Positions 29,601-41,561 of a DNA stretch of 41,561 bases are shown piece by piece; the stretch's first letter is position 1; the number at the start of each line of letters is the position of its first letter. This DNA is from Kiritimatiellota bacterium (GTDB taxonomy: Bacteria; Verrucomicrobiota; Kiritimatiellia; CAIQIC01): NCBI GenBank assembly GCA_026398385.1, contig JAPLSZ010000251.1, positions 7,449-49,009 on the forward strand, given 5' to 3'. The translations under genes and the position numbers were made by a program. The notes under the pieces are model-generated. The model made no database searches and was not told the DNA's origin. It saw only the letters and a program-made list of their open reading frames with translations.

Positions 29601-29737
29601 TGGATGACAGGATAGTCCACCGTCGGCAGGCTGTTGACCGGCAGGCGCAGGTAGGCCCAGGCGCCGGCGACGATCATCAGGGTGGTCATCAAAATCGTCG
29701 CTATCGGGCGCCGTACAAAAACTTCAGAAAAGATCAC
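26633..29737 (-). CDS. RND efflux transporter permease (AcrB/HAE1-like)
   Basis: About 1035 aa, 12-TM. N-terminus (V)IFSEVFVRRPIATILMTTLMIVAG. Start set at GTG 29737 (GGAG upstream) rather than 29785. Confidence 0.93.
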   Translation of the reverse strand: MIFSEVFVRRPIATILMTTLMIVAGAWAYLRLPVNSLPTVDYPVIQVIVAYPGASPATMASAVALPLENEFTQINGLQSMLSDNKQGVSTINLTFSLSRSVDLVAPDVQAAITRAQNNLPRDLPNPPTYKKFNPSEQPIYYIMLHSATLTHGDLNDYASHIISRKLSMIEGVSQVQVFGAKRAVRVQFSPAKLAAYQIGVDELAAALRAGTVNIPGGTLNGAVRTYVIEPQGQLRTGREFGELIIAQRAGAPIRLKDVASCVDSIANDLVNIRYTKPGVPDTDKCVVMAVSRASGANTVEVADKISAALAVAKRELPGSIEIDALHNGAGPIRESLHDVEVTVLIALILVVLVIFFFLGRIRETIIPSIVLPISLLGTLLLMLPSKFNIDMLSLMGIVLAVGFLVDDAIVVLENTVRHLEEGLKPIPAALLSMREISFTVISTSAALIIVFLPLVFMSGAVGRNLNEFAMTVIYAIIVSTILALTLTPMMCAHILKHEQAPNRVQRWITANIGRLIRGYSVALHWQLRHKWLAVVMWLACILGTGVLYFVLPSSFLPPGDSSFMFGAMIMPQGASTEQMQAYQAKVVAQLKQEPAIAQLGSVTGFQPGADQSIGFIFARLKSPHERPAIEQLVQQYMGKLARFPEGIVALRAAPVLKISSGAESTQMGSDYAYMLTGLDRDTVYAAAQQLEKEMRQIGGIVPFAVQNSVKLNMPRLNVALDRDRASALGISVAAIEQALALAFAGGYATQFTTDQDQYQVIPEIEKSSQRLPENLGLLYLRSPLSGSLVPLKSLVNWTEEASPQNVPHANQHEAATISFSVWPGVPLGYITKAIEARAAQLMPSGVAGTFIGDALEFKKSIASLGALLLIAIFLKYIVLGILYESYIHPFTILTTLPVAVFGGFLTLFAFRSELSLYAYIGVFVLLGLITKNGILMVDFAEQRRREGKNAYDAIHDACVVRFRPILMTGLCAILGVMPIALGYGADAASRKPLGLVVAGGMIFAQLITLFVTPGIYLYMEKIQERFFKPRTDLE

Positions 29738-29771
29738 GTTTTGCTCCGTTTCTCGCCTTGGAAAAATCCGC

Positions 29772-30926
29772 TCATTCCCCCTCACGCGCGATCTTCGCCG
29801 CCGTTGGCGCCGCCGCCGGCGGCGGCTGGGTCGCGTCCATCACCGGCGCGCCGGGGAACAGCATCAACTGGCCGAGCACGACGACGTTCTCGCCGGCCTG
29901 CACGCCGGACACCGCCTGCACGAGGTCGCCCACGCGCACGCCGAGCTGTAGCGGCCGCAGTTCCGCGGTGTTCTGCGCCGAGACGACGAACAGATACGGC
30001 CCCTGCTTGCCGAATTGCACCGCGCCCTCCGGCACCATCACCGCGCCGGGCACCGTGCCGGCATGCAGGCGCACGCTGACGAACTGGTGCGCCCAGAGTT
30101 TCAGGTCCGGGTTCGGCGCGGAGCCGCGCAACTGGATGGTGCCGGTCTGCGCGCTGACGGCATTTTCGATAACGTCGAGCGTGGCGGTGTAGGTGTTCGT
30201 CTCGCCGCGCGGGACGAGTTCCAGCTTGACCGGTCCGGCGGCGAGCGCGCGGCGGATCAGCGGGAGGTAATCCTCCGAGACGGAAAAATCCACAAAGAGC
30301 GGATCATAGCTGCGGATGTTCACCAGCCGCGTCAGACCGGCGGCGACGAGGTTGCCGTCGTCGGTAGTGCGCGTCGAGCAGACGCCGGCGAGCGGCGCGG
30401 CGATCGTGCAGCGCGCCAGGTTCAGGCGCGCGAGCGCGAGCAGCGCTTCGTCGGCCTGCAGCGCGGCGCTGGCGGCGGCGAACCTGGTCTTGATCGTGCC
30501 GAAGTCCTCGGCGGAGATCAGTTTCTTTTCGAGCAGCGGCTGGTTGCGCTCCATGGTCAGGCGCGCGAGTTCGCGGTTCGCCTGGTCGGCGGCGCGCGCG
30601 GCCTCGGCCTGCTGGACGCGCGCGGCGTAGTCGCGGGGATCAATCTGGAACAGCGGCTGCGCGTTGGTGACCACGGCGCCGTCCTGGATGAACGTCTGGA
30701 GCAGTTGCCCGGAGACCTGCGGGACGATGTCCACACTCATCCGCGCCTTCGTGGTGCCGAAGGCGTTGATGAGGACCGGCGCATCCATCGGCAGCGCGGG
30801 CGTCAGCTTGACGGGGAACGCCATCTTGGGGGGCGGGCCGGCGTGCTTGCCGCAGCCCGCCATCACGGCTACTACGGCCAGCGTGGCCAGCCCGCGTGTT
30901 GTTTTCAGAAAAATGTTGGGCTTCAT
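29772..30926 (-). CDS. RND efflux periplasmic adaptor (MFP, AcrA-like), lipoprotein
   Basis: Lipobox VMAGCG. Biotinyl-lipoyl/hairpin/beta-barrel pattern (VSGQLLQTFIQDGAVV..GQPLFQIDPRDY...AEAA...C.I.AP..G). Confidence 0.9.
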   Translation of the reverse strand: MKPNIFLKTTRGLATLAVVAVMAGCGKHAGPPPKMAFPVKLTPALPMDAPVLINAFGTTKARMSVDIVPQVSGQLLQTFIQDGAVVTNAQPLFQIDPRDYAARVQQAEAARAADQANRELARLTMERNQPLLEKKLISAEDFGTIKTRFAAASAALQADEALLALARLNLARCTIAAPLAGVCSTRTTDDGNLVAAGLTRLVNIRSYDPLFVDFSVSEDYLPLIRRALAAGPVKLELVPRGETNTYTATLDVIENAVSAQTGTIQLRGSAPNPDLKLWAHQFVSVRLHAGTVPGAVMVPEGAVQFGKQGPYLFVVSAQNTAELRPLQLGVRVGDLVQAVSGVQAGENVVVLGQLMLFPGAPVMDATQPPPAAAPTAAKIAREGE

Positions 30927-30962
30927 GTTTTTCTCCGTCGCGCGATGTTCATCGTTGCATTT

Positions 30963-31036
30963 GTAGGGGCGCAGTCTTGCTGCGTCCCATGTGCTCGGCG
31001 GTCATTTAGACGGGCGCAGCAAGACTGCGCCCCTAC
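30963..31036. repeat. Perfect 22-bp inverted repeat GTAGGGGCGCAGTCTTGCTGCG ... CGCAGCAAGACTGCGCCCCTAC (30-nt spacer)
   Basis: Read directly. It lies inside the efflux operon, between the OMF stop (31072) and the MFP start (30926). Confidence 0.9.
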
Positions 31037-31071
31037 CAACTGGTTGCCAGCCGGCACGGCAAGCCAAGGTT

Positions 31072-32514
31072 TCACGGTTGCCTCTCTGCCCTGGGGGCGT
31101 CCAGGTTTTCCCGGTCGAGCGTACCGCTGGCGAAGGCCAGGTTGGCCAGGGCGGTGAAGGCCTCCTGCCGCGCCGCGATGTTCTGGCTGCGCGCGCGCGC
31201 GAGCTGCGCCTCCGCCGTGAGCAGGTTGAGGATGTTCAACAAGCCGGCCTTATAGCTGTCCAGCGCGAGGTCATAGGCCGCCTGGGCGCTGTTCAGCAGC
31301 GCGGCGCTCGCGGCGCATTTTTTCAGCGCGGTCTGGTAGTTCTGATGCCCGCTCCACACCGCGGCGCTGGCGGCGAGTTCCGCCTGTTGCAACTGGCTGC
31401 GAACCGACGCCGCCTGCGCGGCGGCGGCGCGCCGGGCGTTGCGCGTCTGCAGACCGTCGAACAGCGTCCATTGCAGACTCAGGCCCGCGCCGTAGTTCCA
31501 ATCGTTCTCGGCCACGAACTGGCCGGTCCAGACCTTGTTGTAGTCGCGCAGCGCGTGGCCGTTGAGATAGAGCGACGGCCAGTTCGGCGCGCCGGCGACC
31601 TTGATCGCCGATGTGCTCGCCTGGAGCCGGGCGCGCAGCGCGGCGATGTCCGGCCGGCGGGCGAGCGCGGCATCAATCATCGGCGTCAACTGCGCGGCGT
31701 CCACGGCCGCGGGCAGGGTTTGCGCGGGCGCAGCCACCTGGACCGCCACATCCGCCGGCAACCCCAGCGCCTGGGTCAAGGCGGCCCGCGCGTTTTGCTC
31801 AGCGCCTTCCGCGCCCGCGAGCAGGAACGCGGCTTGATCCATCAGCGCCTGCGCCTGCAACACATCCAGTTCGCGCCCGACGCCGTGGTCGCGCCGGAGC
31901 TTCGCGAACTCGAGCGCGGTCTGCGCATCCGTGAGCTGCGCCTGCGCGGCGGTGATGCCAGCCTGCGCGCTAACAAGACCAAAGTAGGCCTGCTGCACCG
32001 CCAGCAGGATACCCTGCAACGTGCTGTTGAACGTGTAGTTGGCCGCATACACGGTGTGCAGCGCCTGTTCCACGGCCGCTTCGCGTCCGCCGCCGAAGTT
32101 GAAGATCAGGTAGTTGAGCTGCAGACCCGGCCCGTAGCCCAGATAGTCCTGGTCGAGCTGGTCCACACTGGAGTTGACCTTCTGGCGGGTGACGCTGCCC
32201 TGCGCGGTGACGGTCGGCATGAAATAGCCGCGCGCCTGCTGGGCCTGCGCGGCCGCCACGCGGGCGTCGTTCCACGCCTTGCGGCTCGCCGGATTGTTCT
32301 GCAAGGCGATATCGGCCAGTTCCGCCAGCTTCAGCGGTTTGGTCAGATTGGGACAGCGCGCGCGCAGTTCCTGCCACGACTGTAAAGAGGTCCGCGCCCG
32401 TTGCGGCGGCTTCCAAGGCTGAACCGCCGATTCCGGCGCGGGCGCCGAGACGCAGCCGGCCAACGCCATGGCTGCTGTGACCAGCGCGGCCGCAAGGTAA
32501 ATCCGGTGATTCAT
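31072..32514 (-). CDS. Outer-membrane efflux factor (TolC/NodT-family lipoprotein)
   Basis: MNHRIYLAAALVTAAMALAGC lipobox. Two repeated OEP halves with a coiled-coil pattern. Start ATG 32514 overlaps the marR stop (ATGA). Confidence 0.9.
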   Translation of the reverse strand: MNHRIYLAAALVTAAMALAGCVSAPAPESAVQPWKPPQRARTSLQSWQELRARCPNLTKPLKLAELADIALQNNPASRKAWNDARVAAAQAQQARGYFMPTVTAQGSVTRQKVNSSVDQLDQDYLGYGPGLQLNYLIFNFGGGREAAVEQALHTVYAANYTFNSTLQGILLAVQQAYFGLVSAQAGITAAQAQLTDAQTALEFAKLRRDHGVGRELDVLQAQALMDQAAFLLAGAEGAEQNARAALTQALGLPADVAVQVAAPAQTLPAAVDAAQLTPMIDAALARRPDIAALRARLQASTSAIKVAGAPNWPSLYLNGHALRDYNKVWTGQFVAENDWNYGAGLSLQWTLFDGLQTRNARRAAAAQAASVRSQLQQAELAASAAVWSGHQNYQTALKKCAASAALLNSAQAAYDLALDSYKAGLLNILNLLTAEAQLARARSQNIAARQEAFTALANLAFASGTLDRENLDAPRAERQP

Positions 32515-32888
32515 GACGTGTCCCTTTTGCGCGCGCGCGACGCGCGGCGCTGTCCACGCATCTGCTCCAGGCTGCGCCGCCCTCTGGCGGTGAGCGCCAC
32601 GCGCACCTCGCGCCGGTCCGCGCGGCTGCGGCGGCGCGCCACCAGCCCGCGGCGCGCGAGTTGATCCGCCAGGCCCGTCGCCGTCGAGCCGTGCAGCCGC
32701 AGTTCCCCGGCCAGCGCGCGCATGGTGCAGGGGCCGCGATCGAAGAGGTGCTCCAGCGCCCACATCTGCGGCAAGGTGAGCGCGCCCAGCGTGGAAAGAT
32801 CGGTTTGCGAGATGCCGCGCGATAAACGCGGCAGCAGCGCGACGAGGCGCGCGGCAAACTGCTCCAGTGTGAGGGCGGCGGTGGTCAT
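32511..32888 (-). CDS. MarR-family transcriptional regulator
   Basis: 125 aa. Winged-helix pattern LTLPQMWALEHLFDRGPCTMRALAGELRLHGSTATGLADQLARRGLVAR. First gene of the efflux operon. Confidence 0.85.
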   Translation of the reverse strand: MTTAALTLEQFAARLVALLPRLSRGISQTDLSTLGALTLPQMWALEHLFDRGPCTMRALAGELRLHGSTATGLADQLARRGLVARRRSRADRREVRVALTARGRRSLEQMRGQRRASRARKRDTS

Positions 32889-32914: not shown

Positions 32915-33075
32915 GACGCGAACTATAACCCCGAATCCGCCGGGTGCAAGCGAAATAAATTCGGTTTTACGCTTGAGAAATGCCGGCGAATGCGGGATTA
33001 TGCACCATGGTTTATGGCTGCGGCAGATCAAGGACAGCGCTGCGGTGGCGGCGTGTCGGGGAAGAAGGGCAGGGT

Positions 33076-34914
33076 ATGCAGACAGGGAAACAAGAGCGCG
33101 GCGTCAGCGTTTGGCTGGCGACGCTGGTAGCACTCGGTCTGGCGGCGGGCCATCTGGCGCCGGCCCAAGCGTTGGGGAGCGGCGCGGTTCCGGCCACTGT
33201 GCACCCGGCGGACGACGAGGCCTTCGTGTTTTCGCTTACGGCCAGCAATCCGCCGGCCGCGGCTGCCGAACCGGCGGGTCTGACGAACGCGCCGCAGGCG
33301 CGTTTGAACGCGGCGCAGAACGACGTGCAGCAGGGCCGGGTGGCCCAGGCGATTCCGACACTGGAACGACTGGTGGACGAGGCGCCGCAACTGACGGACG
33401 CCTGGGAGACGCTCGGCTGGGCTTACTGGCGGCTGGGGCGGGAGGACGAAGCCCTCGCGCTATGGGGGAAATTGCTGAAGCTCAACCCGCAGATGCCGCA
33501 GGCCTACAATCTGCTGGGGGCAGCCAGCGTCAAGCGTAACGAGCTGACCATGGCCGCCATGTACTATGAAAAGAGCCTGCAGATCCAGCCGGACCAATAC
33601 GATGTGGAATTGGCCCTGGCCCGCATCGCGCGCTGGACCGGCGACGAGGAGCGTGCCATCGAAAAATTGCGGGCCTTGGCGGCGAAAGATCCCCGGCGCC
33701 GGGATGTGAAAAACGAGTTGTCCCGCGCGCTGGGGGGCGCAAGCGAAGAGCCGGCCAACCCTGTGGAACCCGGCGCGCCAGGGTCCTCCTCTGCCACCAA
33801 CGAGGAACACCGGGCGCGTCCGGCGGCGGACGCGTCATCTCCGCGCAACGCGCTCGCCGGCCAGCCGCCGGCCAGCCTCCCGGGGGACCGCGCTGCGCCT
33901 GAGCGCGCAGCCCAGCCGCCCGCCCCGCCGCTCGCGGTGGCGAGCGAGGGGCGCGGCGCGCAGAACGTCGCGCGCTACCGGCCGTATGTCGGGGCGCTAG
34001 CCGAAACCTTTCAGGATAATCTGGATAGCCGCAACTGGCGCGCATACGGACGCGCGGGCTTCCAGCCGACGCCCCGTCTGACGGTCGAAGGCCGTGCCGG
34101 TTATGGTCAGATGAAACAGGCCTTCACCAACAGCAGCGCGATCAATGTTCCCGACATCACGTTGGACGAGAAGATGGTCAGCCTCGCCCCCTCGTGCACG
34201 TCCCCGAACGGCTGGACGTTGCTGGGCGAGTTAGCGGCTCGCCAGTTCTCCGGCGCCGTTCCGGGCGCGCAGAATTTTGATAAAACCGTATTGCAATATG
34301 CCCTCGAGGGCCAGGCCAAGCCGCTGCTGCCCCTCGACGTGGCGGCGCGGTACGAGCACGACATCGTCCCCGCCGCCCGCGCGGCCCTCAAGGAGACCAC
34401 CTCCAACATGGCCTTGCTTAGCGCCGTCTGGAGCCTGACCGACTGGTGGAACCTCTGGGCCAGCGGCGAACGGTACGATTTTTCCGATGGCAATGCCCGC
34501 AACCACCTGGCGCTGAGCAGTTCCTGGCTGGTGTGGGAGCCGCTCGGCCTGCATCTGGGCCTGCGGTACGCCTATGCCGACGCCAGCGTGGCCAGTCCCG
34601 ATTACTGGACGCCTTATCAATTGCAGCGGTATTTTGTCGAGGCCGATCTGCGCGGGACGCAGCTGCGCATCTTTTATAACCTGCGCCTGCGCTATGGCCT
34701 GGGGCGGCAGGGCGTGCGGCCGGAAGCCCAGGCGGCCCTCGCCTTGCCCGGCAGCAATCCGCCCGAGGAGGGCTGGCAACCGGTGATCGGCGCCAGCGCC
34801 GCCGCGCGCGCGAAGGTCGGCAAACATTGGGAACTCAGCGGCGAAGTTTCGCACAACAAGATGCCTGACTATAACGAAACCACGGTAACGGCTGGCTTGA
34901 ACTACAGGTTCTGA
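33076..34914 (+). CDS. TPR-repeat protein fused to a C-terminal outer-membrane beta-barrel (PgaA/YaiO-type architecture)
   Basis: Signal peptide MQTGKQERGVSVWLATLVALGLAAGHLAPAQA. TPRs (DAWETLGWAYWRLGREDEALALWGKLLKLNPQMPQAYNLLG...). Pro/Ala linker. An alternating-hydrophobic C-domain of about 310 aa ends in ...TAGLNYRF (aromatic terminal residue). Confidence 0.7.
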   Translation: MQTGKQERGVSVWLATLVALGLAAGHLAPAQALGSGAVPATVHPADDEAFVFSLTASNPPAAAAEPAGLTNAPQARLNAAQNDVQQGRVAQAIPTLERLVDEAPQLTDAWETLGWAYWRLGREDEALALWGKLLKLNPQMPQAYNLLGAASVKRNELTMAAMYYEKSLQIQPDQYDVELALARIARWTGDEERAIEKLRALAAKDPRRRDVKNELSRALGGASEEPANPVEPGAPGSSSATNEEHRARPAADASSPRNALAGQPPASLPGDRAAPERAAQPPAPPLAVASEGRGAQNVARYRPYVGALAETFQDNLDSRNWRAYGRAGFQPTPRLTVEGRAGYGQMKQAFTNSSAINVPDITLDEKMVSLAPSCTSPNGWTLLGELAARQFSGAVPGAQNFDKTVLQYALEGQAKPLLPLDVAARYEHDIVPAARAALKETTSNMALLSAVWSLTDWWNLWASGERYDFSDGNARNHLALSSSWLVWEPLGLHLGLRYAYADASVASPDYWTPYQLQRYFVEADLRGTQLRIFYNLRLRYGLGRQGVRPEAQAALALPGSNPPEEGWQPVIGASAAARAKVGKHWELSGEVSHNKMPDYNETTVTAGLNYRF

Positions 34915-35014
34915 GCATGGTCGGGCTTTGAACCAATACGGACCGGTGCTATAGTGCAGCGGCGCGCCTGTGGCGGGATGGATGTTTGGGGCGGTTACGC
35001 GGACGAAAGGGGAA

Positions 35015-35245
35015 ATGCCAGTGGATACGCAATTGTTTCTCGCGAGCTTGGCCGGAATTCTCAAGGTCCTACCCGGTTCGATCAAGGGGGAAGATCAACT
35101 GGATCAATGTGCGTCTTGGGATTCGCTGGCGGTGGTCACCTTTCTGACCATGGCCAACTCGAAATTTGGCGTGCGCGTATCGCCGCCGGCGGTGATTCGA
35201 TGCAAGACGGTAGCCGATTTGATGCGGCTGGTCGCCAAGCCCTGA
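35015..35245 (+). CDS. Acyl/peptidyl carrier protein (PP-binding)
   Basis: 76 aa. ...QLDQCASWDSLAVVTFLTMANSKFGVRV with Ser codon 35123-35125 in a DSL motif. ATG 35015 is preceded by AAAGGGGAA. Confidence 0.75.
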   Translation: MPVDTQLFLASLAGILKVLPGSIKGEDQLDQCASWDSLAVVTFLTMANSKFGVRVSPPAVIRCKTVADLMRLVAKP

Positions 35246-35322
35246 TCGGCGGCCACCCGATCATAGGAGAGGCCAAGCCTGGGTTCATCCTGGAAGAGTT
35301 TGGCGCAGGCCGCCTGACATGT

Positions 35323-37188
35323 ATGGACGATTTTTTATCCACCGTTCAGAGTTGCCGGCAACTGATGACGCAGGGCGAGGTGGCCACGGCGCTCGCGGGT
35401 TTGCGGGCGGGGTTGCGTTTCGGCCAGCCGGAACCGTTCGAGTATGATCTGGCGGGACAACTGCTGGGGGAAATAGGCGCCGTGGTCCCCGCGCCCGCCG
35501 CCTTTCCGACGTACCGGGTGGGCCTCGTGGCCGACCACACCACCACCACACTGGCGAACGCGATCCGCTGCGCCTTGCTGATGGAGGGGTTGCTGCCCGT
35601 GGTCTACGAAGCGCCTTTCGGCGCGGTTTTCCAGGAAATCCTCGATCGCCACAGCGGTCTTTATCGCGAACCGCGCGACGCGGTGCTCATGGCATTTCAT
35701 CACCGTATGATCGAATATCCGGAACAGCCTTTGGGTGGCGCCGTCCCGGCCGAAGAACTGGCCGCGCGCGTGGTGGGCCGGTGGGCGGAGGCGTGGGCGG
35801 CGCTCCAGCAGAACTTGGGTTGCCAGGTGTGGCAACACACCCTGGTGCCGTCGGGTCTGGCGGGATTGGGGGCGGTGGAGCAGTCGTTGCCGGCGGCGCC
35901 GGACCAGTTCATTGGGCGGATCAATCAGCTCAGCCGCGAGCGGGCGCCGGCCTTTGTGCATTGGGTGGACACGGCCAGCCTGGCGCAACAGGTTGGGTTC
36001 AGAAACTGGCATGATCCGCGCATGTACTACTACGGCAAGTTCGGCTTCAATCCTCAGTATGTGCGGGATTACATCAACGTATTTTTGGGCGCTTTTCGCG
36101 CGGCCACCGGGCGGAACCGCAAAGTCCTGATCACAGACCTGGACAACACGCTGTGGGGCGGGGTTGTCGGCGACGCCGGCCTGGAGGAAATCAAGCTGGG
36201 TCCGGGCACGCCGGAGGGCGAAGCCCACGAAGCTTTCTGCCGCTATCTGAAAAGCCTGAAGGAACGCGGCGTTATGCTGGCGGTCTGCAGCAAGAATGAC
36301 GCGGCGACGGCGCGGGAAGTGTTCGAGCGCCATCCCCACATGCCGTTGCGGCTGGCGGATTTCTCCGCTTTTTGCTGCAACTGGAGTGACAAGGCCGGCA
36401 ATGTACTGCAGATGGCGAAGGAGTTGAACATCGGCCACACGCATCTGGCCTTCGTCGATGACAATCCCGCGGAATGCGAATTGATCCGGCGCGAATTGCC
36501 GGAGGTCGCGGTGGTGGCGTTGCCCGAGGATCCCGCCGATTTCGTGGCCGCTATTGATGAGGCGCATCTCTTCGATGCGGCGCACGTGTCGTCGGAGGAT
36601 TTGCTGCGCGCGCAATCCTACCGGGCGCGCGAGCAGGCGGAAGACGTCAAGCGTTCCGCCGGCAGCTTGGAGGCTTACCTGGCGGACCTGCGCATGGTGG
36701 GGAAATTCTTCCGGGCCAGCGCGGCGGACGTGCCCCGTCTGGCGCAGATGGAGCTCAAGACGAATCAATTCAATGTGACCACCCGTCGCTATAACGCCGA
36801 CCAGATCCGGGCCTTCCTGCAGGATGACCACATGGCGGTGTTCGCTTGTACGCTGGCCGACCGGTTTGCGAATCACGGCCTCGTTTCCACCCTGATCGCA
36901 CGCCGCGCAGGCCAGGACCTGGTGCTGGATAGCTGGCTGATGAGCTGCCGCGTTTTTTCGCGGACGCTGGAACAGTTCATGATGAATGCCTTGATCGAAT
37001 TTGCGCAGAAAAATGGCATCACGCGTATAGTCGGCGATTACCTGCCGACCTCCAAAAATGCCGTGGTGCAGGATCTTTTCTCCTCATTGGGTTTTCAACC
37101 CCTGGGCCCGAAGGCGAGCGGTCGCTGGGTGCGCAACATTCGCGACGACCCACCGCTGCCCACCAGCGTGCGCAACGACGCCACGTAA
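35323..37188 (+). CDS. FkbH-like / HAD-superfamily IIIC phosphatase-acyltransferase (carrier-protein loader)
   Basis: HAD motif I LITDLDNTLWGG (DLDNTLW = 36136-36156). KTNQFNVTTRRY. C-terminal GNAT-like block with WLMSCRVFSRTLE (Cys codon 36946-36948). N-domain VGLVADHTTTTL...VYEAPFGAVFQEILD..SGLY. The start is uncertain (35323, or 35200 overlapping the carrier gene). Confidence 0.85.
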   Translation: MDDFLSTVQSCRQLMTQGEVATALAGLRAGLRFGQPEPFEYDLAGQLLGEIGAVVPAPAAFPTYRVGLVADHTTTTLANAIRCALLMEGLLPVVYEAPFGAVFQEILDRHSGLYREPRDAVLMAFHHRMIEYPEQPLGGAVPAEELAARVVGRWAEAWAALQQNLGCQVWQHTLVPSGLAGLGAVEQSLPAAPDQFIGRINQLSRERAPAFVHWVDTASLAQQVGFRNWHDPRMYYYGKFGFNPQYVRDYINVFLGAFRAATGRNRKVLITDLDNTLWGGVVGDAGLEEIKLGPGTPEGEAHEAFCRYLKSLKERGVMLAVCSKNDAATAREVFERHPHMPLRLADFSAFCCNWSDKAGNVLQMAKELNIGHTHLAFVDDNPAECELIRRELPEVAVVALPEDPADFVAAIDEAHLFDAAHVSSEDLLRAQSYRAREQAEDVKRSAGSLEAYLADLRMVGKFFRASAADVPRLAQMELKTNQFNVTTRRYNADQIRAFLQDDHMAVFACTLADRFANHGLVSTLIARRAGQDLVLDSWLMSCRVFSRTLEQFMMNALIEFAQKNGITRIVGDYLPTSKNAVVQDLFSSLGFQPLGPKASGRWVRNIRDDPPLPTSVRNDAT

Positions 37189-37329
37189 GCAGCCGTCCGC
37201 GCGCGCGGTTATCCGGCGTCTGGAACAGGCGGCGAGTGGTCTGCTGCGGGAGCTTGCGCGCTACACAGGGCAGCGCCACCGCCGGCTAAAACGGAGGGGG
37301 CGCGTTCACGCGGGCCGGCGCTCGACGAT

Positions 37330-37722
37330 TTACATCAAGTGATTGGTCGGCGTGAAAAACCAGGCGATCCGCCGTCCGCCAAACGCGGTGGCAGGCACCG
37401 GTGGGCTCACCAGCGTGCAACCTTGCTGGAGCAGGGCGGCCATCGTCGGCGTCAGATCATCCACTTCGCAGCAAAGGTGGTAGGCGCCGATACCCTTGGC
37501 CAATGTGCGGGTGATCGGCGAGTCGTCGCTCAACGCTTCGATCAATTCGATCGCAGAGTCGGTCCCTTGAGCGGGGCCCAGGAAGCAGACCCGGACTCTT
37601 TGCATGGGGTCATCGAATGGGCCAGAGCGTACGACAAAACCAAAGGCCTGCTGATAAAACTTCACGGCCTGCTCGATGTCCGCCACCGCCACGCCCAGAT
37701 GATGAATCTTAAGATCCGTCAT
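37330..37722 (-). CDS. VOC-family protein (glyoxalase I / methylmalonyl-CoA epimerase-like)
   Basis: 130 aa. MTDLKIHHLGVAVADIEQAVKFYQQAFGF ... GAYHLCCEVDDL. Start trimmed to ATG 37722. Confidence 0.8.
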   Translation of the reverse strand: MTDLKIHHLGVAVADIEQAVKFYQQAFGFVVRSGPFDDPMQRVRVCFLGPAQGTDSAIELIEALSDDSPITRTLAKGIGAYHLCCEVDDLTPTMAALLQQGCTLVSPPVPATAFGGRRIAWFFTPTNHLM

Positions 37723-37943
37723 GGTTATTGCTCTTGCCGAAGTAAAACATACGGCGGCGCACAAGTCCAGGCGCATGGCTTCATCCGCTTGGGCGAGGTG
37801 CGGATTGCCAAACCCGCGGGATTGTAGTAGAAGCTCCGTTTCTTAAAGAAAGGCCTGTGATGAACCGACCGCCGAGCGCGAGAATAAGACGCGAGCTTAT
37901 GGCCGCCGGGCCGGGCGGGTGGGCCCGCGACAGGTGCTAAGTC

Positions 37944-39377
37944 ATGCTTTTCCCAACCCTCGCTTTTGCCGTCTTTTTCCTGATCGTGTTTTGCGGCCAC
38001 TGGCTGTTGATCCGGCACGCGGTCGCGTGGAAGCTGTTCATTCTGGCCGCGAGCTGGTTTTTCTATGCTTATTGGGACTGGCGCTTTCTGGGCCTATTGA
38101 TCCTGTACACGGTGGTCAATTACAGCCTGGCGTTGGCCTCGTACCAGAGCGGCACGCCGCCCCGGCGACGGTGGGTGGCCTTGGCCATCGTGTTCAATCT
38201 CAGCCTGCTGGGGTTCTTCAAATACTACGGCTTTTTCACGGTCTCCGCCTATGCCGTCTGCGGCTGGGTGGGACTGCGCTGTCCGCTGCCCTTGCTGGAC
38301 GTCGTGCTGCCGATCGGCATTTCCTTCTTCACGTTTCAAGCCATAAGCTATGTCATTGATGTGCACCGCGGACTGATCGAGCCGGCGCACAGCGTCATTG
38401 ACTTTGCGATCTATAAGGCTTTTTTCCCGCAACTCGTGGCCGGGCCGATCATCCGGGCGAGTCACTTTATACCGCAATTCTACCAGATCATGAGCGTGCG
38501 GCGCATTGACGCGGGCCGGGCCGCCGCCTTGATCATGGGCGGCCTGTTTAAGAAGGTGGTGATCGCCAACTATATAGCCGTGAACGTGGTGGACCCGGTC
38601 TTTGGCAACCCGTGGGCGTATCAGGGCCTGGATGTCCTGCTGGCGGTGTACGGCTATGCCGTGCAGATTTACTGCGATTTCTCCGCCTATTCCGATATCG
38701 CCATCGGCGTGGCGCAACTGCTGGGATTCCATTTCCCTGAAAATTTCAACGCGCCTTATTTCGCCCGGTCCGTCCGCGAGTTCTGGCAGCGCTGGCACAT
38801 TTCCCTGTCCACCTGGCTGCGGGATTATCTTTTTTTCAGCCTGCTCGGCACCCGGCTGGGCGCCTCGCGTTACGCGCTGGGCCTCTGCGCCTTGCTTACG
38901 TTTCTGCTGGGCGGTTTGTGGCATGGCGCCGCGTGGACGTTTGTCCTATGGGGCGCGTTGCAGGGCCTGTATATGACGACGGAGTTTCTGCTGGCCAAGC
39001 TGCTGGTCTGGATGCGCGCGGGTCGTCCGCTGCCCGAGGGACCGGTGATGCGGTTGGCGCAGCGGATGGCGGTGATCCATTTGATCTGCATTTCCCATTT
39101 GTTCTTTCGGGCGCATTCCATTACGGACGGGGTGCAACTATTACAGGGGATCATGGGTTCGTGGCACGGCGCCGTCTTGCTCACTTTCCCGGCCGTCTTG
39201 GCGCTGATCATCGGCTTTCTCACGCAATACATGGATGGCACCCGCTGCGCGCCGATTTGGAATTGGTACAACCGCCTGCCGGCGGTCGGGCAGGGGCTGC
39301 TGGCGGCGGTGGTGTTGACGATCGTCCTGGCCCTGGGGCCGCAAGGCGTGGCGCCCTTCATCTATTTTCAATTCTGA
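37944..39377 (+). CDS. MBOAT-family membrane O-acyltransferase (AlgI/DltB-like)
   Basis: 477 aa, polytopic. ISFFTFQAISYVIDV; FWQRWHISLSTWLRDYLF; GGLWHGAAWTFVLWG (conserved His codon 38922-38924). Confidence 0.9.
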   Translation: MLFPTLAFAVFFLIVFCGHWLLIRHAVAWKLFILAASWFFYAYWDWRFLGLLILYTVVNYSLALASYQSGTPPRRRWVALAIVFNLSLLGFFKYYGFFTVSAYAVCGWVGLRCPLPLLDVVLPIGISFFTFQAISYVIDVHRGLIEPAHSVIDFAIYKAFFPQLVAGPIIRASHFIPQFYQIMSVRRIDAGRAAALIMGGLFKKVVIANYIAVNVVDPVFGNPWAYQGLDVLLAVYGYAVQIYCDFSAYSDIAIGVAQLLGFHFPENFNAPYFARSVREFWQRWHISLSTWLRDYLFFSLLGTRLGASRYALGLCALLTFLLGGLWHGAAWTFVLWGALQGLYMTTEFLLAKLLVWMRAGRPLPEGPVMRLAQRMAVIHLICISHLFFRAHSITDGVQLLQGIMGSWHGAVLLTFPAVLALIIGFLTQYMDGTRCAPIWNWYNRLPAVGQGLLAAVVLTIVLALGPQGVAPFIYFQF

Positions 39378-39384
39378 GACGACC

Positions 39385-39672
39385 ATGAAAGAAATGTCCG
39401 ACATTGGCGCCGAACGCAGGCAACAAGGCCACGGGCAGACCATCATCCGGACGGCAGCGGCCGTGCTTTGCTTCTATGTGTTTGCGGGCCTGCTCAACGG
39501 CGAGGCCCTCCGGCACGACGTGGAACTCATGCCCTACGGGGGCCGACGGGATGTCTGCGTGGCCCTCGTCAAGCCCATGGCCTGGTTGAGCCGGGTGACC
39601 TACCTGGGATCCTTCCGGAGCTGGATCGAAAAAAGCGTCCGCAAAGCGGATATGGCGGCGCCGAATCCCTGA
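39385..39672 (+). CDS. Small single-TM membrane protein (hypothetical; MBOAT partner candidate)
   Basis: 95 aa, starting 7 nt after the MBOAT stop. One TM, IIRTAAAVLCFYVFAGLL. No recognisable domain. Confidence 0.5.
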   Translation: MKEMSDIGAERRQQGHGQTIIRTAAAVLCFYVFAGLLNGEALRHDVELMPYGGRRDVCVALVKPMAWLSRVTYLGSFRSWIEKSVRKADMAAPNP

Positions 39673-39677
39673 CGGCC

Positions 39678-41561
39678 TTAGAACTTGAACTTGATTCCGC
39701 CCAGCAGGTTCAGCGAGTTATAATCGGGCAGGCGGTTATAGGAAACTTCCCCGTTCAATTCCCAATGGCCACCTAATTTGATCCGCGTGGCCGCCACCAG
39801 CCCCAGCACGGGTTCCCAGCCCGGTTCCTCGATCGGGTTGGCCAGCAGGACATCAATATAATGCTGGAAGTTTCTAATGGTGGCCGGGCTGAATCTTCTG
39901 CTGCGGGCTGTTCGCAGGCTTTGCTGCAACTGTTGCAGATCTTCCTGATACTTGCGCTTGGCTTCAGGACGCAAGCTCTCCTTGCCGAGGCCGTAGCGCA
40001 CGCCGATATTGTAATAGATCCGCCGGTAGGTGCGCCGGAAAAAGGCTTCCAGGTAGTAGCGGTTCAGTTTATAGGGCGTCCAGTAGTCCGGACTGGCTTC
40101 GTCGGCGGAGGTATATTCATAGCGCAGCCCCAGGCGGAAACCGGCGGGCTCATACAGCAGCCACAAGCTTTCCGCCATCAAATGATTGCGGTTGTTGGAA
40201 TCGGAAAACATGTAACGCGTGCCGCTGGCGTTGAGGTCCCACCAATCGAACAGACGGTAGGCCGCGGCGAGCGTGCCGGCGTTGTAGGTGGTATCTTTAA
40301 GCGCCGCGCGCGCGGAAGGCACGATGTCGTGCTCCCAACGCGCGGCCACGTCCAGCGGCAACAGCGGCTTGATCTGTGCTTCCGCCGCATACTGGATTAC
40401 CGTTTTGTCGAAGTTGGCTGTGTGGCCGTTCAAGTCCGTCGGCACCTTGCCCGTGAAGTGGCGATCAGAAAGCTCGCCCAGCAACACCCAGCCGTTGGGG
40501 AATTTGACCGCCGGCGCCACGCCCACCGTGCGCTCATCCAGTCGAATCTCCGGTCCGTTGAGCGCCAGATTGTTGGTGAACGCCTGCTGCATCCGGCCGA
40601 TGCCCGCCGTGCCCTCCACGGTGATGTTGGGGGTCAGGTTCAAACCCCCGAGGCCCAGGAGGCGCCAGTTGCGACTGTCGAGGTTGTCCTTGAGATACTC
40701 CGCCCGGACGCCGACATACGGGTCTTTCAATTCCAGATGGAAGGGTCCCTTGGTGACTTTACTGATACCCACCGGTGTCGTGCGCACCCCCGTCAGGCGT
40801 TCGTACACGTAACTCGCCACTTTGTTGTAGGCATTCGTCGGATAGCCGTCCTGCCGCAATTGCGCCAAGGCGTCCTTGGATTTATAGATCTTGCCTTCCT
40901 GGGCGGCGTATTCGGCCCGCAGCCGGTGGGCCAGAAAGACCGGGTGATTGCGCAGGAGGTATTCCACGGCTTCCGCTCCCGGCAGGCGCCCCAGCTCGTG
41001 GCGCTGGTAGAGCAGGGGGTTGTCGCCGTTGACCGCGTAACCAAACTGGCTTTGGATAAAGCCGGTTTTATAGTTGGCGGCCGCTTCCCGGAGATTGACC
41101 GTGAGGGCCTCGGGCATGTCGCTGCGCGTTTCCTGGCCGAGGTCGCCCATGGGGTAGGCGATGATATCCGCTGCGCCGCCCAGCTTCTGCTGCATAATTT
41201 CGCGGCTGCGCTGGTATTCATATTTGATGCGGGCATCATATTCGTTTTCGGTTTCCAGCCGGTTCGGCGCAGCGAGCCATAGGCGGTTGGCCAGCGGATG
41301 GATGACCGAATTGTCGGACTCCATGTGCAGCACCTCATGGGCTTCCATCAAATGGCTGCCAAACCGCCAGCGGCCCGTGGCTTGAGCGGCCTTCATCTGC
41401 TCCCAGGAACTGGTGTAGGAATCGTGATCCACATGGCCCACGGGCACATGCATGAGGAATGTCGTGTTGAAATCCTGCGCCACCGCGGTCCCCAGCCGCA
41501 GGGCCTCCCGCCGCGCATCGTCGAAGGTGACCATGACCACACGCTCGGGTGTACCCGTCGG
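39678..41561 (-). CDS. NodB/PgaB-like polysaccharide deacetylase fused to a C-terminal outer-membrane beta-barrel; 5' end beyond the window
   Basis: The frame is open to the window edge (...PTGTPERVVMVTFDD). TFDD (41517-41528) and H-x4-H (GSHLMEAH) are as in PgaB, plus AYPMG. The C-terminal domain of about 345 aa is paralogous to 33980-34914 and ends ...GGIKFKF. Confidence 0.75.
   Translation of the reverse strand, partial: PTGTPERVVMVTFDDARREALRLGTAVAQDFNTTFLMHVPVGHVDHDSYTSSWEQMKAAQATGRWRFGSHLMEAHEVLHMESDNSVIHPLANRLWLAAPNRLETENEYDARIKYEYQRSREIMQQKLGGAADIIAYPMGDLGQETRSDMPEALTVNLREAAANYKTGFIQSQFGYAVNGDNPLLYQRHELGRLPGAEAVEYLLRNHPVFLAHRLRAEYAAQEGKIYKSKDALAQLRQDGYPTNAYNKVASYVYERLTGVRTTPVGISKVTKGPFHLELKDPYVGVRAEYLKDNLDSRNWRLLGLGGLNLTPNITVEGTAGIGRMQQAFTNNLALNGPEIRLDERTVGVAPAVKFPNGWVLLGELSDRHFTGKVPTDLNGHTANFDKTVIQYAAEAQIKPLLPLDVAARWEHDIVPSARAALKDTTYNAGTLAAAYRLFDWWDLNASGTRYMFSDSNNRNHLMAESLWLLYEPAGFRLGLRYEYTSADEASPDYWTPYKLNRYYLEAFFRRTYRRIYYNIGVRYGLGKESLRPEAKRKYQEDLQQLQQSLRTARSRRFSPATIRNFQHYIDVLLANPIEEPGWEPVLGLVAATRIKLGGHWELNGEVSYNRLPDYNSLNLLGGIKFKF

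What the first reader, a model, noticed from the sequence alone, without database searches (positions are those of the whole stretch)
33980..40725. Two diverged paralogous barrel domains in inverted orientation bracket the acylation module
Seen: the C-terminal ~310 aa of the TPR protein (nt ~33980-34911, +) and the C-terminal ~345 aa of the deacetylase protein (nt 39681-~40725, -) align block by block. Examples are NLDSRNWR, TVEG.AG.G.M.QAFTN, PNGW.LLGEL, FDKTV.QYA.E.Q.KPLLPLDVAAR.EHDIVP.ARAALK.TT, DWW.L.ASG.RY.FSD.N.RNHL, LGLRY.Y, SPDYWTPY.L.RY and GW.PV.G. By eye, roughly 50-60% of positions in these blocks are identical. At the DNA level the conserved blocks differ mostly at third codon positions, for example 34277-34400 versus the reverse complement of 40290-40410. 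That points to an old duplication under purifying selection rather than a recent repeat. The deacetylase copy carries an extra ~32-aa basic, helix-like insertion (KRKYQEDLQQLQQSLRTARSRRFSPATIRNFQHYIDVLLA, nt ~39850-39960) absent from the TPR copy. Both end in an aromatic residue (F), typical of the BAM beta-signal.
Basis: seen in the sequence. Interest (0 to 1): 0.55.

Follow-up and report, generated by a model that had tools for sequence, protein, structure and literature searches.

The report
Duplicated polysaccharide-export porin, one copy stripped down
Two genes flanking a sugar-acylation gene set encode old duplicate copies of a 16-stranded outer-membrane pore. The pore resembles those that bacteria use to secrete biofilm polysaccharides, and the family, unnamed so far, has the sugar-deacetylating enzyme built into the pore protein.

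Summary
The C-terminal ~310-350 aa of the TPR protein (winA, 33076-34914 +) and of the deacetylase protein (winB, 39678->41561 -) align at 51% identity (E 2e-123). dN/dS is 0.27 with near-saturated dS, and there is no DNA-level repeat.

A deep-alignment AlphaFold model of the winA domain (pLDDT 94) is a 16-stranded beta-barrel. Its best PDB matches are the exopolysaccharide export porins PgaA, BcsC and PelB (TM 0.62-0.71).

The domain defines an unannotated family, seen so far in Lentisphaerae MAGs. Typical members are ~1100 aa: N-terminal TPRs, a CE4 deacetylase, a helical linker and the barrel. In five related loci such a gene sits beside a NodC/PgaC-like GT2 synthase and a second PgaB-like deacetylase.

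- winB runs off the window and probably carries TPRs too.
- winA is paralogous along its whole length. It keeps the first TPRs and the barrel, but ~550 aa (distal TPRs, CE4, linker) are replaced by a Pro/Ala-rich linker.
- The "insertion" in winB is an extended form of loop L7 shared with other members, plus a shortening of that loop in winA.

Export function is inferred, not shown. No synthase lies in the window.

The parts
33076..34914 (+). winA gene: signal peptide, about 4 TPRs, Pro/Ala-rich linker and 16-stranded barrel (612 aa from M33; the mechanical ORF starts at 32980)
   Evidence: ORF. The start is inferred from orthologue P0002/L007, which begins MKAGKQ. Pfam TPR hits at aa 105-250.
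33076..33171 (+). winA signal peptide MQTGKQERGVSVWLATLVALGLAAGHLAPAQA. It has no Cys, so the protein is not a lipoprotein.
   Evidence: Read from the sequence. No signal-peptide predictor was run.
33295..33732 (+). winA TPR block, homologous to the first TPRs of the full-length TPR-CE4-barrel family
   Evidence: 46% identity over 178 aa to P0003 residues 83-259, E 3e-40. Pfam TPR_19, TPR_2 and TPR_16.
33733..33978 (+). winA low-complexity Pro/Ala-rich linker (about 41% P+A). It occupies the place of about 550 aa (distal TPRs, CE4, helical linker) in full-length relatives.
   Evidence: dN/dS against the orthologue is 0.58 here.
33970..34911 (+). Barrel A: 16-stranded beta-barrel domain (314 aa modelled)
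   Evidence: AlphaFold2 with a 31-sequence alignment: pLDDT 94.3, pTM 0.87, 16 strands. Foldseek top hits are PgaA 4Y25, BcsC 6TZK/9B8H and PelB 9H80.
34708..34776 (+). Barrel A loop L7 (between strands 13 and 14), shortened to 23 aa
   Evidence: Loop-length table across 45 family barrels; the median is 33 aa.
34970..35245 (+). Acyl carrier protein (Ser in WDSLA)
   Evidence: Pfam PP-binding, 32.8 bits. DSL motif. Conserved in L007.
35323..37188 (+). FkbH-like HAD-IIIC protein, the presumed loader of the carrier protein
   Evidence: NCBIfam TIGR01686 FkbH domain, 290.8 bits against a cut-off of 146.65. The start is taken from orthologue L007.
37330..37776 (-). VOC/glyoxalase-fold protein (methylmalonyl-CoA-epimerase-like)
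   Evidence: Pfam Glyoxalase_4, 80.3 bits. TIGR03081 scores 66 bits, below its cut-off.
37944..39377 (+). MBOAT acyltransferase ending in FIYFQF (FxYxxF acyl-shuttle motif)
   Evidence: Pfam MBOAT, 77.6 bits. DltB model 164.7 bits, below its cut-off. C-terminus read. The motif is defined in PMC12148441.
39385..39672 (+). Conserved 95-aa protein with one hydrophobic stretch (read by eye; no TM predictor was run) and no family match
   Evidence: 41% identity to the 90-aa ORF that follows the MBOAT gene in Lentisphaerae locus L006. No Pfam or NCBIfam hit.
39678..41561 (-). winB gene, the 3' part only: CE4 deacetylase, helical linker and 16-stranded barrel. The 5' end lies beyond the window.
   Evidence: The reading frame is open to the window edge. 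It aligns over all 627 aa with about 1100-aa TPR-CE4-barrel genes of L003 (55%), L004/L005 (48%) and L006 (41%).
41112..41561 (-). winB CE4 (NodB-type) deacetylase domain, with TFDD at 41517-41528 and HLMEAH at 41337-41354
   Evidence: Pfam Polysacc_deac_1, 27.3 bits against a cut-off of 23.1. Weak PgaB hit at E 5e-8. Motif conservation.
40746..41111 (-). winB conserved region between CE4 and barrel (…HPVFLAHRLRAEYAAQEGK…GYP…). Its helical character is my reading of the sequence; no prediction was run. It is absent from winA.
   Evidence: Family-wide conserved columns H206, P207, A211, R215, Y240, P241. Coordinates.
39681..40745 (-). Barrel B: the paralogous 16-stranded barrel domain (355 aa)
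   Evidence: 59% identity to barrel A in the trimmed family alignment, and sister to it in the NJ tree. Strand and turn lengths are the same as in barrel A.
39816..39980 (-).
   Evidence: The 54-55-aa form, with an R-rich 'RxRRxRW/F' segment, is shared with P0005, P0009 and P0022.

Best explanation
Both segments are outer-membrane channel domains of the class used by synthase-dependent exopolysaccharide systems (PgaA, BcsC, PelB). They belong to an unannotated protein family found so far in Lentisphaerae-type bacteria. In that family one polypeptide carries periplasmic TPRs, a PgaB-like CE4 de-N-acetylase, a conserved linker (helical by my reading of the sequence) and a 16-stranded barrel.

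winB is a regular member whose N-terminus lies outside the window. winA arose from the same gene type by a lineage-specific duplication. An internal deletion then removed the distal TPRs, the CE4 domain and the helical linker. What remains is the signal peptide, about four TPRs, a flexible Pro/Ala-rich linker and the barrel.

Proposed working, all inferred:
1. A GlcNAc-type polymer made by a NodC/PgaC-like GT2 synthase is received by the TPRs in the periplasm.
2. The CE4 domain, held next to the pore, partly de-N-acetylates it. This would be a covalent version of the PgaA-TPR/PgaB-deacetylase complex.
3. The neighbouring ACP/FkbH/MBOAT module may O-acylate it.
4. The polymer is threaded out through the barrel.

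winA is co-directional with and 56 nt upstream of the ACP gene. It most likely serves as a second, enzyme-free exit or scaffold for the same or the acylated polymer.

Shown: paralogy, purifying selection, the barrel fold of winA and its nearest structural neighbours, the family architecture, and gene linkage in relatives. Inferred: the barrel fold of winB (not modelled), the export function, the substrate, and the division of labour between winA and winB.
For: - Paralogy and selection: 51% identity, E 2e-123. dN/dS 0.27 with dS 1.41. winA against its orthologue in L007 gives dN/dS 0.44 overall, 0.41 in the barrel and 0.22 in the TPRs.
- Fold: AlphaFold2 pLDDT 94.3, pTM 0.87, 16 strands.
- Nearest solved structures: PgaA barrel 4Y25 (E 1.7e-10, TM 0.66/0.70), BcsC 6TZK and 9B8H (TMq 0.70-0.71), PelB 9H80_M (TMq 0.62). 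Generic porins score TM <= 0.53.
- Faint sequence link: 12 of 31 family barrels hit Pfam PgaA_barrel at E <= 1, best 5.8e-7.
- Family: 148 hits among 1.84 billion representatives, 52 below 1e-30, mostly ~1000-1250 aa with the barrel at the C-terminus. P0003, P0005, P0007 and P0017 show TPR + Polysacc_deac_1 + barrel.
- Whole-length paralogy of winA: its TPR block and its barrel match the two ends of P0003.
- winB aligns end to end with the C-terminal 627 aa of ~1100-aa genes.
- winA and winB are each other's nearest relatives in the barrel tree.
- Linkage in relatives: the TPR-CE4-barrel gene is convergent with a ~1330-aa CE4/TPR protein and a chitin-synthase/NodC/PgaC-like GT2 in L006, L003, L009, L010 and L012. 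In L006 an MBOAT (56% identity), the small ORF and a PatB-like SGNH gene lie directly after the barrel gene.
- Precedent: the porin-proximal TPRs of PgaA bind and activate the PgaB deacetylase domain in a 1:1 complex (PMC9384988).
- The CE4 motifs TFDD and H-x4-H are present in winB.
Against: - No glycosyltransferase or synthase of the expected type lies in the 41.5-kb window. The only GT found is a GT4 at 22222-23415, which is in unrelated surroundings.
- The barrel does not reach the curated thresholds of PgaA_barrel, BCSC_C or TIGR03939. A family profile finds no solved structure by sequence. The link to export porins therefore rests mainly on a predicted fold.
- Only winA was modelled.
- A rough sequence-based count of lumen-facing charges is near neutral (net +1 and +2), so it does not point to a cationic deacetylated polymer.
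- Many family members lack the second metal-binding His or the DD pair, so deacetylase activity is not a fixed property of the family.
- winA is under looser constraint than its neighbour (dN/dS 0.44 against 0.19 for the FkbH-like gene).
- The NJ tree has no support values.
Confidence: 0.7

Rival explanations
1. The two barrels work together, either as a hetero-complex or as two specialised exits. winB would handle the de-N-acetylated polymer. winA, co-transcribed with the ACP and FkbH-like genes, would be the dedicated exit or outer-membrane scaffold for the carrier-protein-dependent acylated polymer.
For: winA lies 56 nt upstream of the ACP gene on the same strand. The order winA, ACP, FkbH-like, VOC, MBOAT is kept in the related contig L007. 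In L006 a barrel gene directly precedes MBOAT, the small ORF and SGNH. Lumen-facing positions are more conserved between winA and winB (62%) than lipid-facing ones (50%).
Against: No interaction prediction could be run. Co-transcription is only suggested by spacing. This is a refinement of the main explanation rather than a contradiction of it.
Confidence: 0.2
2. winA is a decaying remnant of a duplicated porin gene that has lost its enzyme and most of its scaffold and has no role of its own.
For: About 550 aa have been lost internally and replaced by low-complexity sequence. winA has a long branch in the barrel tree. Its constraint is looser than that of the neighbouring gene: dN/dS 0.44 against 0.19, and 0.89 over the first 70 residues.
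Against: The reading frame is intact, with a signal peptide, 16 predicted strands at high confidence and a C-terminal aromatic residue. dN/dS is well below 1 in the TPRs (0.22) and the barrel (0.41) since the split from L007, and 0.27 against winB. The gene and its position are conserved in a second organism.
Confidence: 0.07
3. The barrels are generic membrane anchors or diffusion porins, or Slam-like lipoprotein translocons with TPRs. They would hold periplasmic domains at the outer membrane and conduct no polysaccharide.
For: The only Pfam model passed is the generic OMP_b-brl (29.7 bits against a cut-off of 28.7). Weak TPR_Slam hits occur in the TPR region.
Against: The three best fold matches are all polysaccharide export porins, and generic porins score much lower. 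The model has 16 strands, not the 14 I recall for Slam barrels, and no DUF560 hit appears. The barrel is fused to a carbohydrate esterase and linked to a GT2 synthase in five related loci.
Confidence: 0.05

Closest known systems
PgaA (poly-beta-1,6-GlcNAc export porin, PDB 4Y25) together with the PgaB deacetylase domain
   Same: Periplasmic TPRs followed by a C-terminal 16-stranded barrel. It is the best Foldseek match (E 1.7e-10, TM 0.66/0.70), and 12 of 31 family barrels show a faint PgaA_barrel Pfam signal. A CE4 de-N-acetylase works at the porin-proximal TPRs (PMC9384988). Related loci carry a PgaC/NodC-like GT2 and a PgaB-like CE4.
   Different: [quoted passage not shown] There is no PgaB-type glycoside-hydrolase domain. 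Scores are far below the PgaA and PgaB equivalog cut-offs (39 against 367 bits; 32 against 322 bits). Barrel sequence identity to 4Y25 is 14%. A CE4-less paralogue sits in the same locus. No pgaC or pgaD lies in the window.
BcsC (cellulose synthase outer-membrane subunit; PDB 6TZK, 9B8H)
   Same: TPR plus 16-stranded barrel; TMq 0.70-0.71. An enzyme-porin fusion has precedent: a BcsZ-BcsC fusion in Zymomonas is reported in PMC7112194.
   Different: No BCSC_C membership (3 of 31 members at E >= 0.017). The fused enzyme is an esterase, not a glycoside hydrolase. The linked synthase in relatives resembles NodC/PgaC, not BcsA.
PelB/PelA of the Pel system (PDB 9H80)
   Same: TPR-porin whose TPRs recruit a de-N-acetylase (PelA). 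The barrel gives TMq 0.62 (PMC9384988).
   Different: No PelC-like lipoprotein ring gene was seen. The deacetylase is fused rather than recruited. There is no sequence-level match.
MBOAT-SGNH polymer acylation systems (AlgIJFX, WssFGHI, PatAB) and the Dlt pathway; relevant to the genes between the two barrels
   Same: An MBOAT with the C-terminal FxYxxF acyl-shuttle motif, as in PatA and AlgI. A carrier protein with a dedicated loader, as in DltC and DltA.
   Different: The window combines a carrier protein with a fused shuttle motif, which PMC12148441 describes as separate solutions. The loader is FkbH-like, not an adenylating enzyme. No SGNH partner lies in the window, although one is present in L006.

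Membership tests
Synthase-dependent exopolysaccharide export porins (PgaA/BcsC/PelB class) | C-terminal 16-stranded transmembrane beta-barrel | tested here: met
   The AlphaFold2 model of barrel A has 16 strands, pLDDT 94.3 and pTM 0.87. Barrel B was not modelled; it is 59% identical with the same strand and turn lengths.
Synthase-dependent exopolysaccharide export porins (PgaA/BcsC/PelB class) | Fold closest to the solved PgaA, BcsC and PelB barrels rather than to other porins | tested here: met
   Foldseek against PDB: ranks 1-3 are 4Y25, 6TZK and 9B8H (TMq 0.66-0.71). 9H80_M gives 0.62, OmpG 0.46 and general porins <= 0.47.
Synthase-dependent exopolysaccharide export porins (PgaA/BcsC/PelB class) | Periplasmic TPR domain N-terminal to the barrel on the same polypeptide | tested here: met
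   winA has Pfam TPR_19, TPR_2 and TPR_16 at aa 105-250. The N-terminus of winB is outside the window, but full-length relatives have ~500 aa of TPRs.
Synthase-dependent exopolysaccharide export porins (PgaA/BcsC/PelB class) | Sequence membership: Pfam PgaA_barrel PF21197 or BCSC_C PF05420, or NCBIfam TIGR03939 or PRK11447, above the curated cut-off | tested here: not met
   PgaA_barrel scores 13.2 bits against a cut-off of 27. TIGR03939 scores 39.4 against 366.65, and only over the TPRs. The best family member reaches E 5.8e-7. A family profile finds no PDB chain.
Synthase-dependent exopolysaccharide export porins (PgaA/BcsC/PelB class) | Encoded with a processive GT2 polysaccharide synthase | tested here: inconclusive
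   None lies in the window. A NodC/PgaC/chitin-synthase-like GT2 lies next to the homologue in L003, L006, L009, L010 and L012.
Synthase-dependent exopolysaccharide export porins (PgaA/BcsC/PelB class) | Conducts the polymer across the outer membrane | not testable with these tools
   This needs genetics, electrophysiology or structures with bound polymer.
CE4 / NodB polysaccharide de-N-acetylases (PgaB-like); applies to winB only | Polysacc_deac_1 domain above the Pfam gathering score | tested here: met
   27.3 bits against 23.1, residues 1-141 of the fragment.
CE4 / NodB polysaccharide de-N-acetylases (PgaB-like); applies to winB only | Catalytic and metal-binding motifs (TFDD Asp pair; two His) | tested here: met
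   T12-F13-D14-D15 and H70-x4-H75 are present in winB. Across 39 family members D14 is in 39, D15 in 30, H70 in 25 and H75 in only 10. My assignment of these residues to metal binding rests on general CE4 knowledge.
CE4 / NodB polysaccharide de-N-acetylases (PgaB-like); applies to winB only | PgaB equivalog score and the PgaB C-terminal glycoside-hydrolase-like domain | tested here: not met
   TIGR03938 scores 31.7 bits against 321.9. The region after CE4 is the conserved linker plus the barrel.
Slam (surface lipoprotein assembly modifier: TPR + DUF560 barrel) | DUF560 barrel of 14 strands | tested here: not met
   The model has 16 strands. No DUF560 hit appears for any of 31 barrels at E <= 1. 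There are only weak TPR_Slam hits in the TPR part. The 14-strand figure is from my own knowledge.
BAM-assembled outer-membrane proteins | C-terminal beta-signal ending in an aromatic residue | tested here: met
   winA ends in ...GLNYRF and winB in ...GIKFKF. F314 is nearly invariant in the family alignment.
MBOAT-SGNH polymer acylation pair (the genes between the barrels) | MBOAT with the C-terminal FxYxxF motif plus an extracytoplasmic SGNH transferase | tested here: inconclusive
   The MBOAT and its FIYFQF C-terminus are present. No SGNH gene lies in the window. A DUF459/PatB-like SGNH follows the homologous MBOAT in L006.

The most novel reading that the evidence does not exclude
The locus could encode a two-pore, modification-coupled secretion device. 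winB would be a porin with a built-in deacetylase. winA, an enzyme-free paralogue, would have been retained as the outer-membrane partner of an unusual acylation route. In that route a carrier protein loaded by an FkbH-type enzyme (that is, with a glyceryl- or lactyl-type unit rather than acetyl) feeds an MBOAT that carries its own tyrosine shuttle. This would be a new chemical decoration of a secreted GlcNAc-type polymer and the first case of paralogous export porins dividing labour by modification state.
Probability: 0.12. Interest if true: 0.75.

Novelty: new variant of a known kind. Interest (0 to 1): 0.45.

Why it matters
Synthase-dependent exopolysaccharide systems (Pga, Bcs, Pel, Alg) are the textbook models for biofilm-matrix secretion. 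In them the modifying enzymes are separate proteins that dock on the porin's TPRs.

This family hard-wires the deacetylase between the TPR scaffold and the pore. That arrangement is independent, evolutionary support for the idea that deacetylation is coupled to export at the outer membrane. It also extends this secretion class to an uncultured PVC-group lineage, where the proteins are annotated only as 'hypothetical' or 'TPR repeat'.

The family also duplicates readily and sheds domains. The window holds a CE4-less copy, and L004 and L005 hold barrel-less copies. These give natural deletion variants for testing what each module contributes.

The practical value is modest. The finding offers a Pfam-less barrel family with a high-confidence model, and a candidate system for new polymer acylation chemistry.

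Tried and rejected
- The word-indexed protein search with barrel A found a single fragment. The exhaustive HMMER scan was needed to reveal the family.
- The first AlphaFold run, with a 3-sequence alignment, was useless (pLDDT 39.9). Its helices in the N-terminal half were artefacts. The 31-sequence alignment resolved the fold.
- Sequence searches of the PDB with 3-sequence and 31-sequence profiles gave only chance hits, to an EGF-like protein and an antibody chain. I discarded them.
- The metagenome scan with winB alone found nothing. The second scan added only L008 and L009.
- I could not recover sequence to the right of the window. The exact MBOAT protein occurs only on a 2.3-kb Logan contig.
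- The inverted-repeat search found no DNA-level similarity between the two barrel regions. This rules out a recent repeat or gene conversion.
- An in/out-phase estimate of lumen charge gave a near-neutral result.
- A Slam-like translocon, a generic porin and a pseudogene were considered and ranked low (see the rival explanations).
- I scanned the rest of the window for a synthase. Ten of the larger ORFs upstream of the efflux genes are unrelated: MFS transporter, GH2, URO-D-like, GH29 fucosidase, M2/M3-type peptidase, BamB-like, radical SAM, methyltransferase, LarC-like and GT4. The RND efflux and MarR labels for 26633-32888 are my reading of the translations, not a family search.

Full report
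**1. The observation.**
The region holds two long ORFs. The first (32980-34914, +, 644 aa as listed) carries TPR repeats. The second (39678-41540, -, 620 aa as listed) carries a polysaccharide deacetylase domain.

BLASTP aligns the C-terminal 337 residues of the first with the C-terminal 374 residues of the second. Identity is 51%, positives 64%, E 2e-123, with one long gap. tblastn finds these two copies and no third in the window.

On 337 aligned codons, nucleotide identity is 62% and differences by codon position are 111/91/181. Nei-Gojobori dN is 0.38 and dS is 1.41, which is close to saturation, so dN/dS is 0.27. A search for inverted DNA repeats finds nothing connecting the two regions.

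**2. Corrections to the gene models.**
The minus-strand frame has no stop between the listed GTG and the window edge. It reads PTGTPERVVMVTFDD..., so this gene (winB) continues beyond position 41561.

For the plus-strand gene (winA), the orthologue on contig L007 (protein P0002; barrel 91-92% identical, whole ORF 85%) starts at the methionine equivalent to M33. That gives a 612-aa protein with a signal peptide ending AQA and no lipobox cysteine.

**3. What the domain is.**
Pfam gives only the generic OMP_b-brl model just above threshold (29.7 against 28.7 bits) and a sub-threshold PgaA_barrel hit. The word-indexed homology search found a single fragment.

An exhaustive HMMER scan of 1.84 billion cluster representatives found 148 proteins, 52 of them below 1e-30. 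Nearly all have the match at the extreme C-terminus of proteins of ~1000-1250 aa.

A first AlphaFold run on three sequences failed (pLDDT 40). With a 31-sequence domain alignment (A2), the winA domain is predicted at pLDDT 94.3 and pTM 0.87. The model has 16 beta-strands, short periplasmic turns and longer loops on the other side.

Foldseek against the PDB ranks the following first:

| Target | Protein | Score |
|---|---|---|
| 4Y25 | PgaA barrel | E 1.7e-10, TM 0.66/0.70 |
| 6TZK, 9B8H | BcsC | TMq 0.70-0.71 |
| 9H80 (rank 20) | PelB | TMq 0.62 |
| 2F1C and others | OmpG and general porins | TM <= 0.53 |

At the sequence level the link is faint. Twelve of 31 family barrels touch PgaA_barrel at E <= 1 (best 5.8e-7) and three touch BCSC_C. 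A family profile finds no solved structure.

The domain thus works like, and is probably a remote relative of, the PgaA/BcsC/PelB porins. It is not a member of their curated sequence families.

**4. The family and what winA and winB are.**
The typical architecture in the family, N-terminus to C-terminus, is:
- about 500 aa of TPRs;
- a Polysacc_deac_1 (CE4) domain;
- a conserved ~110-aa region that I read as helical (no prediction was run);
- the barrel (P0003, P0005, P0007, P0017).

Sources name these proteins 'hypothetical protein' (Lentisphaerae bacterium GWF2_57_35) or 'TPR repeat protein'. All four GTDB-genome hits are Lentisphaerae MAGs.

winB aligns over all its 627 visible residues with the C-terminal parts of such genes: 55% identity in L003, 48% in L004 and L005, 41% in L006. 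I therefore infer that it is a regular member whose TPR region lies outside the window.

winA matches the same proteins at both ends. Its residues 106-283 are 46% identical (E 3e-40) to residues 83-259 of P0003, and its barrel matches residues 780-1138. Between them, about 550 residues of P0003 correspond to an ~80-residue linker in winA that is 41% Pro+Ala.

winA is thus an internally deleted paralogue of the whole gene, not a different TPR protein with a similar barrel.

In a neighbour-joining tree of 45 barrels, winA (with P0002) and winB are sisters, and winA sits on the longer branch (no support values). Since its split from the L007 organism (dS ~0.10), winA shows dN/dS of 0.44 overall: 0.22 in the TPRs, 0.41 in the barrel and 0.58 in the linker. 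The neighbouring FkbH-like gene shows 0.19. winA is constrained, but more loosely than its neighbour.

**5. The 'insertion'.**
I mapped the model strands onto the family alignment and assumed the usual topology, with both termini periplasmic. Under that assumption the indel lies in extracellular loop L7, between strands 13 and 14.

| Group | L7 length (aa) |
|---|---|
| Family median | 33 |
| winB, P0005, P0009, P0022 | 54-55 |
| winA, P0002 | 23 |
| P0004, P0006, P0025, P0031, P0032, P0041, P0071 | 13-19 |

The long form shares an Arg-rich 'ARxxRW/F...I' segment. The 32-residue difference therefore combines an extended loop form that is not unique to winB with a shortening in winA.

The most conserved motifs, EHDxxPSAxA and DYWTPY, lie in loops L4 and L6. 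In the solved porins, as I recall, such loops fold into the lumen; I did not check this here.

**6. Genomic context.**
Between the two genes lie five others:
- an acyl carrier protein;
- an FkbH-like HAD-IIIC protein (TIGR01686, 290.8 bits against a cut-off of 146.65);
- a VOC/glyoxalase protein on the opposite strand;
- an MBOAT;
- a conserved 95-aa ORF.

The order winA, ACP, FkbH-like, VOC, MBOAT is kept on L007. To the left is what reads as an RND efflux operon with a MarR-type gene (my reading of the translations; no family search was run on them), followed by unrelated genes. No polysaccharide synthase lies in the window.

Relatives supply the missing context. In L006, L003, L009, L010 and L012 the TPR-CE4-barrel gene is convergent with two genes:
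- a ~1330-aa protein with a PgaB-like CE4 domain and TPRs;
- a 413-443-aa GT2 whose best matches are NodC (154 bits), PgaC/IcaA (109 bits) and chitin synthase, all below the equivalog cut-offs.

In L006 three genes lie between the barrel gene and that pair: an MBOAT 56% identical to the window's, a homologue of the 95-aa ORF, and a DUF459/PatB-like SGNH gene.

L004 and L005 carry tandem paralogues that keep the TPRs and the CE4 region but lack the barrel. L012 has an 813-aa TPR protein directly upstream of its barrel gene; its other domains were not examined. The family therefore duplicates and sheds domains repeatedly.

**7. Mechanism.**
*Established.* In E. coli the porin-proximal TPRs of PgaA bind the deacetylase domain of PgaB 1:1 and raise its activity. 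PelB does the same for PelA (PMC9384988). Enzyme-porin fusions exist for cellulose, as BcsZ-BcsC (PMC7112194).

*Inferred here.* The family is a fused form of that complex:
1. The polymer made by a NodC/PgaC-like synthase is taken up by the TPRs.
2. It is partly de-N-acetylated by the CE4 domain placed directly below the pore. winB keeps TFDD and H-x4-H.
3. It leaves through the 16-stranded barrel.

The neighbouring MBOAT module would O-acylate the polymer in the periplasm. winA keeps only the scaffold start and the pore. Its position at the head of the ACP and FkbH-like genes suggests a role tied to the acylation module, but nothing here tests that.

*Weak points.*
- There is no synthase in the window.
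- The function rests on a predicted fold and on gene linkage in relatives.
- A crude lumen-charge estimate is near neutral.
- The metal-binding histidines are poorly conserved across the family.

**8. Novelty and verdict.**
My searches of the paper library, which were not exhaustive, found no description of a TPR-CE4-porin fusion or of this barrel family. The proteins are annotated as hypothetical.

The kind of system is well known, namely a synthase-dependent exopolysaccharide export porin with an associated deacetylase. What is new is the fused architecture, its occurrence in Lentisphaerae-type bacteria, and the retained domain-deleted paralogue next to a carrier-protein-dependent MBOAT module. 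I rate it a new variant of a known kind, of moderate interest.

Noticed in passing
window 34970-39377: The MBOAT ends in FIYFQF, the FxYxxF tyrosine 'acyl shuttle' motif of PatA/AlgI-type MBOATs. Yet it sits with an acyl carrier protein and an FkbH-like loader. PMC12148441 states that non-Dlt MBOAT/SGNH pathways lack a carrier protein. This looks like a hybrid of the Dlt-type (carrier-fed) and PatA-type (fused shuttle) solutions. An FkbH-type loader suggests a glyceryl- or lactyl-type acyl group rather than acetyl.
   Followed up: partly
window 39385-39672; L006 5723-5995: A 95-aa ORF with one hydrophobic stretch (read by eye) directly follows the MBOAT gene. It is 41% identical to a 90-aa ORF in the same position in a Lentisphaerae MAG. 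It has no Pfam or NCBIfam match. It could be an accessory subunit of the acylation machinery.
   Followed up: partly
window 37944-41561 versus L006 4307-6803: No SGNH/DUF459 transferase gene lies in the window. In L006 a PatB-like DUF459 gene follows the MBOAT and the small ORF. In the window that position is taken by the 3' end of winB.
   Followed up: partly
L003, L006, L009, L010, L012: A conserved three-gene core in relatives: the TPR-CE4-barrel gene is convergent with a ~1330-aa PgaB-like CE4/TPR protein and a NodC/PgaC/chitin-synthase-like GT2. In L010 and L012 a response regulator and KaiC-like ATPase genes follow.
   Followed up: partly
L004 2360-7465; L005; L012 7481-9922: Tandem paralogues in L004 and L005 keep the TPRs and the CE4 region but lack the barrel. 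This is the reverse of the domain loss seen in winA. L012 has an 813-aa TPR protein directly upstream of its barrel gene, whose CE4 content was not examined.
   Followed up: partly
family barrels P0021, P0023, P0024, P0032, P0033, P0036, P0046-P0059, P0066: One subfamily carries a ~50-60-aa Thr/Ser/Glu-rich insertion in loop L2 (between strands 3 and 4), where other members have 8-23 aa. It also has a shorter L4.
   Followed up: no
CE4 domains of family members (alignment): Many members have lost canonical CE4 residues. The second Asp of TFDD is present in 30 of 39, the first His in 25 of 39 and the second His in only 10 of 39. Part of the family may carry a non-catalytic, sugar-binding CE4 module. 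winB keeps all four.
   Followed up: partly
window 26633-32888: Immediately left of winA lie what read as an RND efflux operon (pump 26633-29785, membrane-fusion protein 29772-30926, outer-membrane factor within 31072-32763, all minus strand) and a MarR-type regulator ORF (32511-32888). These labels come from reading the translations, not from a family search.
   Followed up: no
window 1-26000: The rest of the window holds unrelated genes: MFS transporter, GH2, URO-D-like protein, GH29 alpha-L-fucosidase with an F5/8 domain, M2/M3-type peptidase, BamB-like beta-propeller, radical SAM protein, PUA methyltransferase, LarC-like nickel-insertion protein and a GT4. There is one tRNA-Met (11985-12061, minus strand). 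G+C rises to 0.70-0.71 at 14-18 kb and falls to 0.59-0.61 at 36-41 kb.
   Followed up: no
representative-library hits P0075-P0148: More distant hits (E 1e-10 to 1e-3) match only the C-terminal half of the barrel profile. Many are 1300-1980-aa TPR-rich proteins, or ~300-aa proteins, with no Pfam model for the barrel. This suggests a wider superfamily of TPR-barrel proteins that curated families do not cover.
   Followed up: partly
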